Below are positions 20,281-21,729 of a stretch of DNA of 64,000 nt, in pieces. The notes beneath the pieces are model-generated. The model saw only the letters and a program-made list of their open reading frames with translations, searched no databases and was not told the DNA's origin. A program made the translations under genes and the position numbers. Every line of letters begins with the position of its first letter. Within the stretch, counting starts at the first letter, position 1. Source of the stretch: an uncultured Acidobacteriota bacterium (GTDB taxonomy: Bacteria > Acidobacteriota > Blastocatellia > RBC074); contig CAWCKY010000006.1 of assembly GCA_963796275.1 (NCBI GenBank), forward strand, positions 1,952,001 to 2,016,000, read 5' to 3'.

Positions 20281-20388
20281 ATGTTCTGCCCTACATGCGG
20301 ACACGCCGACCAAAAGCCTGAAACCTTCTACCGTCGATGCGGAAAAGGCGCGCTTACGGACCGTCTCGCCACTTGTAGTTGTGATTAA
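20281..20388 (+). pseudogene. Zinc-ribbon gene remnant
   Basis: MFCPTCGHADQKPETFYRRCGK, then the frame is lost; same start motif as the 4811 gene. Confidence 0.45.
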
Positions 20389-20431
20389 CTACCGTTTGAA
20401 CTTTTTAGAACCTGGACTGGAGAGTATTCCA

Positions 20432-20809
20432 ATGAAAATGAATCAGATCATACCAATGCTGCCTGTGATGAGCATGATCGCGAGCATCGAGTTCTATCAG
20501 AAGTTGGGATTCAACGTCGAGCGAAAGAATGATGAATGGGGTTGGGCGATGCTCTGCTTTGACGAGTGTCGTTTGATGTTGGATCAATCGATCAATCTTC
20601 ATCCAGATGCGCCTCGCCAATCCGTTCTATACCTATATCCCGAGAACATAGTGGAGTATCACCAGCAGGTGAGAAGGAACGGGGTAGATGTTCCCGACTT
20701 GGATGTCACCTTTTATGGGATGGCAGAGTTTCGCCTCGATGATCCAGACAGCAACCGATTGTGGATCGGACAAAACACACCTCCCGGAGCCGGTAACACC
20801 AGGAATTGA
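20432..20809 (+). CDS. VOC/glyoxalase/bleomycin-resistance family protein
   Basis: IPMLPV...SIEFYQKLGF...TFYGMAEFRLDDPDSN. Confidence 0.88.
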   Translation: MKMNQIIPMLPVMSMIASIEFYQKLGFNVERKNDEWGWAMLCFDECRLMLDQSINLHPDAPRQSVLYLYPENIVEYHQQVRRNGVDVPDLDVTFYGMAEFRLDDPDSNRLWIGQNTPPGAGNTRN

Positions 20810-20861
20810 GGTGTGAAGAGAAGAACGAAAAATTCTGCATCACCTCTATCAGGTGCACGAG

Positions 20862-21347
20862 ATGAACACCAAGTCGATTTATAAATCGCCTGCGGGCGAA
20901 AGAGCGATAATGGCCTGGTATGATGCTCTGTTGGCTCGTTGGCCAGTACCTTGCACAACGCTAGACGTAGCCTCACGCTTTGGCGCCACCTTTGTCATCG
21001 CCAGCGGAAACGAATCGGCCCAACCGCTGGTACTCATTCATGGCGCAGGCTCGAACTCCGCCATGTGGGCAGGCGATGTTGGCGAATACAGTTGTAACTA
21101 CCGGGTGTATGCCGTTGACCTTCTCGGGGAACCCGGCAAAAGTGCGTCGATACGCCCGGACTGGAATAGTCCCGCCTATGCCGAATGGCTTGGCGATGTA
21201 CTCGACGCCTTGAAAGTAGAAAGGGCCACCCTCATCGGCCTGTCGCAAGGTGGCTGGACAGCGCTCAAGTTCGCTACTTCCCAACCGGAGCGGGTAGACA
21301 AGCTTGTGCTTTTGAGTCCTGGCGGTAGGTCTCTAGAACATGCCTAA
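20862..21347 (+). pseudogene. Alpha/beta hydrolase, C-terminally truncated
   Basis: LIHGAG and GLSQGG are present, but the ORF ends after LVLLSPGG, before the catalytic Asp/His; stop lies in GCCTAAC. Confidence 0.75.
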
Positions 21348-21729
21348 CAAACGTTGCGCCGCAGACGCCGCCAGCCTCAGCAGCAACAGCGACGGCGCAC
21401 AAGATCGCACGGTTGTATTACAGCCTGGTGAAAAACGGAAGAGAGTATCAGGAGCAAGGAACGCGTGCGTACGAAGAGCGAGAGCGGATCGTGGCTAATC
21501 TGGAGAAACGCGCGAAGACGCTCGGGTATGAGCTCGTCGCGAAAGCAGCATAAGAAACGCGGCGGCAGGAAATCGGAGGAAAGGTAGTGAGAAGGAAAGG
21601 GTCGTGGGAAAATTGCAGGAGGACGTGTACCTTGATCTGTAGAATCCAAAGGGCTGTTTCTTAAGAGCCGCCGGGCCTGAGTATATTGAAAACCGAGGAT
21701 AAAACGGCGGCACTTCATACGCATTAACC
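21342..21729 (+). repeat. attC split by an IS110 remnant
   Basis: Left arm GCCTAACAAACGTTGC (21342-21357); right part GAGCCGCCG...TATTGAAAACCGAGG...CGGCGGC...ATTAACC (21665-21729). Confidence 0.75.
21358..21667 (+). mobile_element. IS110-family element remnant (transposase C-terminus plus non-coding right end)
   Basis: 21371-21553 translates as PASAATATAHKIARLYYSLVKNGREYQEQG...VANLEKRAKTLGYELV*, the typical IS110 transposase tail. The element ends at GTTTCTTAAGAG. Confidence 0.82.

What the first reader, a model, noticed from the sequence alone, without database searches (positions are those of the whole stretch)
21342..21729. IS110 (bridge-recombinase family) remnant inserted within a host-family attC site
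Seen: an attC left arm (21342-21357) is followed by an unannotated 60-aa IS110 transposase tail (21371-21553; ATATAHKIARLYY...LEKRAKTLGYELV). About 115 bp of non-coding DNA ending GTTTCTTAAGAG follows, and the attC resumes exactly at its conserved GAG|CCGCCG. Known: some IS1111-group elements target attC sites, and IS110 specificity is set by a bridge/seek RNA encoded in the element's non-coding ends. Inference: an RNA-guided element programmed against this attC family, or against a similar GGAGC-containing repeat, later mostly deleted. Intact copies could supply a new attC-targeting recombinase.
Basis: partly seen in the sequence, partly recalled or inferred. Interest (0 to 1): 0.75.

Follow-up and report, generated by a model that had tools for sequence, protein, structure and literature searches.

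The report
Dead IS110 fragment in attC site
The decayed tail of an RNA-guided jumping gene sits inside an integron recombination site, and its intact relatives in related soil bacteria insert at that same spot, pointing to a second lineage of such elements that invades integrons.

Summary
Window 21342-21357 is the left arm of an attC site of the family used throughout this chromosomal integron array. 21370-21553 encodes the last 61 codons of an IS110-family transposase. 21654-21667 is the element's conserved right terminus. The attC resumes at 21668.

Full-length relatives (1.72-1.81 kb, 463-465-aa transposase) are multi-copy in two long-read Blastocatellia MAGs and occur in soil metagenomes. 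Their left flank ends in ACCGGAG and their right end abuts the rest of an attC, with the transposase gene in the same direction as the cassettes.

In these relatives the ~290-nt region upstream of the gene encodes a structured two-loop RNA. One 8-nt segment equals the left flank and another equals the element's right end, and both covary across lineages. A sister lineage with a changed guide sits in other DNA.

The window keeps none of this RNA. The retained 3' spacer is unstructured, and the assembled genome has no other IS110-family gene, so this is a fossil.

The clade differs from the published IS1111-attC group in orientation, insertion point, RNA location and lack of long subterminal repeats. 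The fragment is ordinary decay. The clade appears undescribed in the literature I could search.

The parts
20853..21347 (+). Truncated alpha/beta-hydrolase cassette gene whose attC was invaded. It has an internal deletion of about 390 bp.
   Evidence: Pfam Abhydrolase_1 covers only profile 2-102 of 245. The same-genus genome G027 has a 284-aa ortholog, 85% nt identity over window 20849-21327. Its stop codon lies in a GCCTAAC box.
21342..21357 (+). attC left arm: the R'' box GCCTAAC, a spacer and the start of L''. It stops 4-7 nt short of the insertion point.
   Evidence: attC profile positions 1-28 match at 21342-21369.
21358..21369 (+). Junction zone of the deletion that removed the attC bases ACCG(GAG), the IS left end and about 400 codons of the transposase gene. 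The origin of these 12 nt is unresolved.
   Evidence: blastn homology to relatives starts at 21370. By eye there is only patchy similarity to relatives upstream of that.
21370..21553 (+). Last 61 codons plus the stop of an IS110-family (DEDD, RNA-guided) transposase. It is not a functional gene.
   Evidence: 80% nt identity to L088 over 21370-21553. It aligns to residues ~401-464 of P0002, which matches NF033542 at 244 bits, and to the last helix of IS621.
21554..21653 (+). 3' non-coding spacer of the IS. It is not conserved among relatives and has no detectable RNA structure.
   Evidence: No blastn alignment to any relative. Fold z-score -0.19. No hit of RNA model R1 in the window (best E 0.34, elsewhere).
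21654..21667 (+). Conserved right terminus of the IS (CTGTTTCTTAAGAG). The last AG (21666-21667) is the shared core, and GAG is ambiguous between IS and attC.
   Evidence: The same terminal motif GTTTCTTAAGAG ends the full-length copies L006-L016, L068, L086-L090 and L094. It matches the donor guide of their RNA.
21668..21729 (+). Remainder of the interrupted attC (central stem and loop), with a degenerate L'/R' end.
   Evidence: attC profile 11-67 matches at 21655-21711. ATTAACC at 21723-21729 replaces the family's GTTAGGC.

Best explanation
What it is: a fossil. An IS110-type insertion sequence of about 1.8 kb, a DEDD recombinase guided by its own non-coding RNA, inserted into the attC of an alpha/beta-hydrolase cassette of this chromosomal integron. 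It went in between CACCGGAG and CCGCCG, in the same direction as the cassette genes.

What happened next (inferred): a deletion of roughly 1.5 kb removed the last 4-7 attC bases before the insertion point, the whole left end with the guide-RNA gene, and about 400 of about 464 codons. Only the transposase tail, the 3' spacer and the right terminus remain. A separate deletion of about 390 bp cut the hydrolase gene.

How the live element works (shown in relatives, not in the window):
- The ~290-nt 5' non-coding region folds into an RNA with two internal loops.
- In the first loop, 8 nt on the 3' side have the sequence of the left target flank including the AG core. They would therefore pair with its bottom strand.
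- About 7 nt on the 5' side of that loop tend to be complementary to the top strand just right of the core.
- In the second loop, 8 nt on the 3' side equal the element's own right end.

The attC-homing clade carries the guide (C/T)ACCGGAG, a string conserved at the L''-proximal stem of this attC family.

Consequence here: the split attC can no longer fold, so the cassettes on both sides are fused.
For: Shown in the window:
- Both attC halves and the junction.
- Tail homology.
- Right terminus identical to the relatives' terminus.
- The left arm belongs to the hydrolase cassette.

Shown in relatives, insertion sites:
- Group A: 4 of 4 copies in one MAG. Group B: 8 of 8 copies in another MAG. 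All have open 463-465-aa frames.
- 22 loci carry an ACCGGAG-type guide.
- 20 of 21 informative left flanks carry an R''-like box 21-24 nt before the junction (17 by regex, 3 by eye).
- 17 of 19 informative right flanks run into an L'/R' end (14 by regex, 3 by eye).

Shown in relatives, RNA:
- The helix closing the donor loop shows changes on both sides in 7 of 8 pairs among 17 sequences, and 0 of 500 shuffles reached the observed score.
- A covariance model hit 106 places in 100 loci, all on the + strand just upstream of the gene. In that alignment 16 of 17 pairs have compensatory changes.

Shown in relatives, guides:
- The 7-mer of the target guide recurs exactly 80-210 nt upstream in 64 of 102 rows, and with one mismatch in 23 more.
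- 12 of 20 distinct variants match exactly, against 0 of 176 foreign-guide controls.
- The donor guide equals the right end exactly in 63 of 98 rows.
- Natural retargeting: L088-L090 carry TTCAAGAG instead and sit after ..CTCAAGAG in non-attC DNA. L088 sits inside an FtsX/MacB permease gene.
- The 5' strand of the target loop against the right flank gives a mean longest Watson-Crick run of 3.66, against 3.06 +/- 0.12 for permuted pairs. 0 of 2000 permutations reached it.
Against: - Nothing was tested at the bench.
- All full-length copies are from MAGs or metagenome contigs.
- The window's own guide is unknowable because its left end is gone.
- By nucleotide identity the tail is closest (79-80%) to L088-L090, the lineage that does not target attC. 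It is 76% identical to the attC-targeting L086/L087. Only the junction itself ties this copy to attC.
- Right flanks vary among copies of one element, and the right-target-guide signal is weak.
- No guide for the element's left end was found (3.07 against 3.05; 869 of 2000 permutations reached it).
- Two copies have one non-attC flank: L013 on the left and L015 on the right. L086's right flank is ambiguous.
- Two copies (L171, L172) were duplicated together with the upstream cassette, so some spread is passive.
- The alignment behind one search was fitted to the structure.
Confidence: 0.85

Rival explanations
1. The remnant belongs to the published IS1111-attC group (ISKpn4, ISPst6, ISPa21, ISPa25), whose seekRNA lies downstream of the transposase gene.
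For: Those elements also hit the R''-proximal arm of attC sites. The family name IS110 covers both groups.
Against: - Relatives carry the structured RNA upstream of the gene. Their 3' spacer is 47-112 nt and not conserved.
- No inverted repeat of 7 nt or more lies in the first 25 nt of the left end (the longest is 3-6 nt in 13 of 13 elements).
- The transposase gene runs in the sense of the cassettes, whereas IS1111-attC elements are antisense.
- The insertion point is 14-16 nt after the CTAAC core, against 6 nt in the targets printed for ISKpn4, ISPst6 and ISPa25.
- The transposase is 463-465 aa. No direct protein comparison was possible.
Confidence: 0.03
2. The association with attC is passive or protein-driven. 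Either the element rides along when cassettes are shuffled or duplicated, or the recombinase recognises the folded attC hairpin, and the RNA match is a by-product.
For: L171 and L172 are one insertion duplicated with its cassette. Right flanks differ between copies and the right-side guide signal is weak.
Against: - The 12 copies in two MAGs lie behind different cassettes with different left and right flanks.
- Guide and flank change together in 10 or so guide types across the family, including non-hairpin targets in coding DNA.
- The family model NF033542 names an RNA-guided transposase.
- Published IS110 and IS1111 members need the RNA for movement (passages read).
Confidence: 0.07
3. Insertion and decay did not happen in this genome. 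The already broken block was acquired with neighbouring cassettes from another bacterium.
For: - No other IS110-family domain or R1 RNA hit exists in the 9.46-Mb assembly, which is 94.7% complete.
- None was found in the 2 same-genus genomes searched.
- The clade is patchy in the taxonomic family, at >=54% identity in 5 of 60 other genomes.
Against: - A split attC cannot itself be recombined, so a larger block bounded by intact sites would have had to move.
- The hydrolase gene next to it has a same-genus ortholog.
- Loss of all live copies after an old invasion explains the data equally well.

This rival concerns history only, not what the fragment is.
Confidence: 0.2

Closest known systems
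IS1111-attC group (ISKpn4, ISPst6, ISPa21, ISPa25; Tetu & Holmes 2008 and Post & Hall 2009, known to me only through citing papers; Siddiquee et al. 2024, passages read)
   Same: Both are DEDD-transposase insertion sequences that home to the R''-proximal arm of integron attC sites, in one orientation and at one position. Specificity is carried by an element-encoded RNA, and insertion disrupts the attC.
   Different: - Here the RNA gene is upstream of the transposase gene, not downstream.
- There are no long subterminal inverted repeats.
- The gene is sense, not antisense, to the cassettes.
- The insertion point is 8-10 nt deeper in the site.
- The protein is 463-465 aa (the one size printed for an IS1111 member is 339 aa for ISEc11).
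- The hosts are Blastocatellia chromosomal integrons, not Pseudomonadota (named hosts).
IS621 and the IS110-group bridge-RNA recombinases (Durrant et al. 2024, passages read; PDB 8wt6)
   Same: - A 5' non-coding end encodes a two-loop RNA.
- An 8-nt guide has the sequence of the left target including a 2-nt core, and a second loop matches the element's own right end.
- The aligned motifs GID, E(S/A)TG and KTDxxD are present in P0002.
- The NF033542 model is met at 244 bits.
   Different: - Sequence similarity to IS621 is weak (E 4e-8).
- The core is AG, not CT.
- In both loops the 8-nt bottom-strand guide sits on the 3' side, whereas IS621 has it on the 5' side.
- No right-donor guide was found.
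- There is a long N-terminal basic extension and a C-terminal extension.
ISEc21 (IS110 type with upstream NCR; Siddiquee et al. 2024)
   Same: It has an upstream non-coding region that is needed for movement, a linear sequence target, and no target duplication.
   Different: The paper states that in IS110-type seekRNA the bottom-strand match comes first. Here the top-strand-complementary segment comes first, the order reported for IS1111 members.
Group IIC-attC introns (Léon & Roy 2010, discussion passage read)
   Same: Another class of mobile element that targets the 5' part of attC sites in cassette arrays.
   Different: They are retro-elements with a reverse transcriptase, inserted antisense, and use an unrelated mechanism.

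Membership tests
IS110 family, RNA-guided DEDD transposase (NF033542; PF01548 + PF02371) | N-terminal DEDD/RuvC-like domain (PF01548) | tested here: not met
   It is absent from the window fragment and from the whole assembly. It is present in 30 of the 41 proteins that match the tail and in P0002. The fragment is therefore a remnant of a member, not a member.
IS110 family, RNA-guided DEDD transposase (NF033542; PF01548 + PF02371) | C-terminal Transposase_20 domain and its last helix | tested here: inconclusive
   The tail alone has no Pfam hit. It aligns over 100% of its length at up to 88% identity to the ends of full-length proteins carrying PF02371. It also aligns to the last helix of IS621.
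IS110 family, RNA-guided DEDD transposase (NF033542; PF01548 + PF02371) | Element-encoded structured RNA with loops matching target and donor | tested here: not met
   In the window there is no R1 hit (best E 0.34). None was found in the genome either (which had no positive control within that call). In relatives it is met.
IS110 family, RNA-guided DEDD transposase (NF033542; PF01548 + PF02371) | Site- and orientation-specific insertion with a short core shared by target and element end, and no target duplication | tested here: met
   The right junction in the window is ..AAGAG|CCGCCG, and intact sites read ..CCGGAG|CCGCCG. The relatives have the same junctions.
IS1111-attC group | Long non-coding region with the seekRNA downstream of the transposase gene | tested here: not met
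   The 3' spacer is 47-112 nt, not conserved and unstructured. The RNA model lies upstream.
IS1111-attC group | Subterminal inverted repeats of 11-13 bp, set 7 bp (left) and 3 bp (right) from the ends | tested here: not met
   The longest repeat within the first 25 nt of the left end is 3-6 nt in 13 of 13 elements. A 5-10-nt repeat lies 24-41 nt inside in 11 of the 13.
IS1111-attC group | Insertion near the 5' end of attC, antisense to the cassettes, at the point printed for ISKpn4, ISPst6 and ISPa25 | tested here: not met
   Here the element is sense-oriented and 14-16 nt after the CTAAC core, against 6 nt.
IS1111-attC group | Transposase clusters with ISPst6, ISPa21 and ISKpn4 in a tree | not tested
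   No reference sequence of these elements could be obtained with the tools. Tetu & Holmes 2008 is not held.
Integron attC site | R''/L'' and L'/R' boxes forming an imperfect palindrome, repeated after each cassette, same strand, next to intI | tested here: met
   - There are 19 profile hits, all on the + strand, at 1380-24972.
- The best integron-integrase hits are 57-775 bp before the window start on the - strand.
- This particular site is split, and its R' is degenerate.
- The box names are from my own knowledge.

The most novel reading that the evidence does not exclude
A previously undescribed clade of IS110-type bridge-RNA recombinases (463-465 aa) in Acidobacteriota has evolved attC homing independently of the IS1111-attC group.

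- It is recently active. One MAG holds four copies that each match the query copy at 100% identity, and another holds eight near-identical copies.
- It inserts sense-oriented, 8-10 nt deeper in the site than the IS1111-attC elements.
- Its RNA has both long guides on the 3' side of the loops, the reverse of IS621.
- It has been naturally retargeted to coding DNA by a change in the 8-nt guide.

It would be both a natural 'cassette-fixing' parasite of sedentary integrons and a new programmable recombinase scaffold.
Probability: 0.5. Interest if true: 0.6.

Novelty: new variant of a known kind. Interest (0 to 1): 0.5.

Why it matters
- For integron biology: attC invasion by RNA-guided insertion sequences is not confined to the IS1111-attC group of Pseudomonadota. 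It has arisen again in large chromosomal integrons of soil Acidobacteriota, where it splits attC sites and locks cassettes together. The window shows the end state, a fossil in an array whose integrase also looks broken.
- For bridge and seek RNA work: the relatives offer a set of natural guide variants with known targets (an attC and a permease gene among others). Their loop polarity differs from IS621. A related element on a Citrobacter plasmid comes from a culturable host.
- The window fragment itself has no function and no engineering value.

Tried and rejected
Searches and tests that led nowhere:
- Guide RNA in the retained 3' spacer. The fold is no better than shuffles, there is no blastn conservation and no R1 hit. 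Rejected.
- Rfam. No family matches the 5' RNA of L006, L086 or L088. The only two hits were microRNA matches below their gathering scores.
- Second copies in the genome. DNA, tail protein, PF02371, PF01548 and R1 searches found only the fragment itself.
- Right donor guide. The 5' strand of the donor loop shows no excess complementarity to the element's left end. By eye, the segment 3' of the donor guide does not covary with the left end either.
- IS1111-type subterminal repeats. Not found.
- Right target guide. Only a weak, register-variable signal. I keep it as tentative.
- Idea that the left arm came from another cassette after a larger deletion. Rejected, because the last ~15 nt of the hydrolase gene still precede the box, as in the G027 ortholog.
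- Empty-site search. The only match in 20 relatives is the hydrolase gene of G027, whose attC differs. No empty or filled orthologous site was found.

Literature:
- I searched IS1111-attC/attC/IS110, the IS names, bridge RNA/attC/gene cassette from 2024 on, and integron/Acidobacteriota/IS110 (one paper, listing only).
- None of the listed titles or abstracts describes an IS110-type attC-targeting element.
- Supplements are closed, so the ortholog tables of Durrant et al. and the trees of Siddiquee et al. may already hold this clade.

Full report
OBSERVATION

- GCCTAACAAACGTTGC (21342-21357) is the start of an attC family that recurs through the first 25 kb of the window. The 12-mer has 16 matches at <=2 mismatches against 4.5 expected, and 0 of 100 shuffles reached that number.
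- In intact sites the string GAGCCGCC begins 20 nt after the box (five pairs of coordinates). Here it begins 323 nt after it.
- A profile built from seven intact sites finds 19 hits, all on the + strand. They include both halves of the broken site: 21342-21369 (profile 1-28) and 21655-21711 (profile 11-67).

WHAT THE PEPTIDE IS

- Alone it has no Pfam hit.
- Among longer proteins it matched 41 at E<=1e-3 out of 106 candidates.
  - 30 carry PF01548 plus PF02371 and are 355-480 aa.
  - 6 carry PF02371 only.
  - 5 carry neither and are short fragments.
- The best full-length match, P0002 (464 aa, 88% identity to the tail), meets NCBIfam NF033542, 'IS110 family RNA-guided transposase', at 244 bits against a cut-off of 140.
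- P0002 aligns weakly to IS621 (8wt6, E 4e-8), with the GID, E(S/A)TG and KTDxxD motifs in register. The window's ATAHKIARLYYSLVKNG segment falls on the last helix of IS621.
- The window keeps about residues 401-464.

CONTEXT

- The best integron-integrase matches of the genome lie 57-775 bp before the window start on the minus strand. They are in pieces in different frames.
- The window is therefore the start of a chromosomal cassette array whose integrase may be dead.
- The gene before the broken attC is an alpha/beta hydrolase cut to 164 aa (Pfam profile 2-102 of 245).
- A same-genus genome has a 284-aa ortholog whose stop codon lies in a GCCTAAC box.
- The window keeps the first ~158 codons and the last ~15 nt of that gene. 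Two separate deletions therefore flank a 30-nt island that holds the attC left arm, and that arm belongs to this cassette.

FULL-LENGTH RELATIVES AND WHERE THEY SIT

- Scans with P0002 returned 80 loci from species-representative genomes and 80 from metagenomes.
- One long-read Blastocatellia MAG has four copies that each match the query copy at 100% identity. Another has eight near-identical copies plus two copies of a 70%-identical relative.
- Elements are 1721-1806 bp. All 12 copies of the first two groups have open frames of 463-465 aa.
- Comparing copies fixes the ends. The left flank ends ..ACCGGAG, the element begins TT.., and the element ends ..GTTTCTTAAGAG.
- 22 loci have an ACCGGAG-type guide.
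  - 20 of 21 informative left flanks carry an R''-like box 21-24 nt before the junction (17 by my regular expression, 3 CCGAAC variants by eye; the exception is L013).
  - 17 of 19 informative right flanks run into an L'/R' end about 45-70 nt on (14 by expression, 3 by eye; the exceptions are L015 and the ambiguous L086).
- The transposase gene always points the way the cassettes do.
- The window's right junction is the same: ..TTAAGAG followed by CCGCCG.

THE GUIDE RNA

The ~290 nt between the left end and the start codon are conserved in blocks.

Structure:
- In 17 diverse sequences, three helices that I proposed are paired in 91.6% of cells.
- The helix closing the second loop has changes on both sides in 7 of 8 pairs.
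- 0 of 500 shuffles reached the observed covariation score, and slid controls drop to 24-46% paired.
- A covariance model built from this alignment hit 106 places in 100 loci. All were on the + strand and just upstream of the gene.
- On that (model-fitted) alignment, 16 of 17 pairs show compensatory change.

Guides:
- Each loop has, on its 3' side directly after a hairpin ending CCCG, an 8-nt segment.
- The first segment equals the left flank. Its last 7 nt recur exactly 80-210 nt upstream in 64 of 102 rows, and with one mismatch in 23 more.
- Among 20 distinct variants, 12 match exactly. 0 of 176 controls with guides from other lineages do.
- The second segment equals the element's right end, exactly in 63 of 98 rows. 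It changes with the right end: AAGAG, CAGAG, CAGGAG, TAGCAG and TAGTAG types.

Natural retargeting:
- L086, L087, L091 and L092 carry CACCGGAG. The three with a readable left flank (L086, L087, L092) sit behind an R'' box; L091 keeps only 9 nt of flank.
- Their close relatives L088-L090 carry TTCAAGAG and sit after ..GATGCTCAAGAG in three different non-attC contexts.
- One of those contexts is an FtsX/MacB permease gene.

Other guide segments:
- The 7-9 nt on the 5' side of the first loop tend to be complementary to the top strand just right of the core. The mean longest Watson-Crick run is 3.66, against 3.06 +/- 0.12 in permuted pairs, and 0 of 2000 permutations reached it. The match is perfect over 7 nt in L006 and L052. 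The register varies, so I call this a tentative right target guide.
- No counterpart for the element's left end was found.

WHAT IS LEFT IN THE WINDOW

- The tail is 80% identical in DNA to L088 over 21370-21553.
- Nothing between the stop codon and the last ~13 nt aligns to any relative.
- That spacer folds no better than shuffles (z -0.19).
- The RNA model finds nothing in the window (best E 0.34 at an unrelated place) or in the genome.
- The 9.46-Mb, 7-contig assembly (94.7% complete) has no other copy of the fragment and no PF01548 or PF02371 hit.
- At least six intact attC sites in the window still carry ACCGGAG at the target position: 1396, 4555, 6184, 6642, 7409 and 9956, each inside an attC profile hit. 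Targets remain but no live element does.
- In 60 other genomes of the same taxonomic family, relatives at >=54% identity were found in 5. One of these has only a C-terminal fragment (G051), much as here. None was found in the 2 same-genus genomes.

COMPARISON WITH WHAT IS KNOWN

Published attC-homing insertion sequences are the IS1111-attC group.
[quoted passage not shown] IS1111 members have 11-13-bp subterminal inverted repeats.
- They lie near the 5' end of attC, antisense to the cassettes.
- The printed targets of ISKpn4, ISPst6 and ISPa25 end in the complement of the R'' core, with the insertion point 6 nt from it.
- The clade here differs on each point:
  - the RNA is upstream;
  - there is no such repeat;
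  - the orientation is sense;
  - the insertion point is 14-16 nt from the core.

Compared with IS621, the general logic is the same. [quoted passage not shown] Here they are on the 3' side of both loops. That gives the order that Siddiquee et al. report for IS1111 seekRNAs rather than for IS110-type ISEc21.

A member of the wider family (50.7% identity) on a Citrobacter freundii plasmid also has a model hit just upstream of its gene.

NOVELTY AND LIMITS

- The fragment is an ordinary decay product.
- The clade it comes from is, as far as my searches go, not described as attC-targeting.
- I could not see Tetu & Holmes 2008, Post & Hall 2009, ISfinder or any supplement. No tree with IS1111-attC references was made.
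- All mechanism is inferred from sequence covariation in MAG and metagenome contigs. Nothing was tested experimentally.
- The box names R'', L'', L' and R' and the statement that a split attC cannot fold are from my own knowledge.

Noticed in passing
Just upstream of the window: G000:C6:1951226-1951944 (-), locus L166 1103-1878: The integron integrase next to the array is in pieces. There is a 173-aa ORF and a 68-aa ORF in different frames, and search hits with TGA inside. It is either a pseudogene or a frameshift error of the assembly.
   Followed up: partly
window 20853-21347: The alpha/beta-hydrolase cassette gene has an internal deletion of about 390 bp relative to a same-genus ortholog (284 aa). 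The deletion ends about 15 nt before its own attC box and is a second decay event beside the IS fragment. No attC lies between it and the glyoxalase-family gene at 20381-20809.
   Followed up: partly
window 21716-21729: The far end of the interrupted attC is degenerate (ATTAACC where the family has GTTAGGC). The site would be dead even without the insertion.
   Followed up: no
L088 (1215/3005), L089, L090: A sister lineage of the element carries the target guide TTCAAGAG. All three copies sit after GATGCTCAAGAG, with different right flanks. L088 is inside an FtsX/MacB permease gene, and the L089 copy has a premature stop. The 12 nt shared by the three left flanks is longer than the 7-nt guide match, which is unexplained.
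   Followed up: partly
L013 and L015 (same MAG, about 45 kb apart): These are two of the eight copies. One has a non-attC left flank and the other a non-attC right flank. This may be an off-target insertion or a rearrangement between copies.
   Followed up: no
L017 343-534 and 2478-2668: Two elements of a 62%-identical relative sit in consecutive attC sites of one contig. Their left junction reads ..CCGGAA rather than ..CCGGAG although the guide ends GAG.
   Followed up: no
Left ends of relatives, 24-41 nt inside (e.g. L117, L097, L136): In 11 of 13 elements the longest inverted repeat, 5-10 nt, links this inner left-end region to the last 4-19 nt of the right end; in 9 of them the left arm is a conserved ..GAAAC.. 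block at 34-41 nt and the right arm lies 4-7 nt from the end. The repeat changes with the right end. Its role is open: protein binding site or a further RNA-DNA contact.
   Followed up: partly
Proteins P0001, P0003, P0005, P0008, P0035; G051:C8:86746-87063: Several other truncated or internally deleted versions of this transposase lie on long contigs. Fossils like the window's therefore seem common.
   Followed up: no
L175 (NZ_OW967265.1 90110-90280), Citrobacter freundii plasmid: An IS110-family gene 50.7% identical to P0002 has a weak hit of the same RNA model (19.7 bits, E 7e-5) just upstream. The same element is on many Citrobacter and Enterobacter plasmids.
   Followed up: partly
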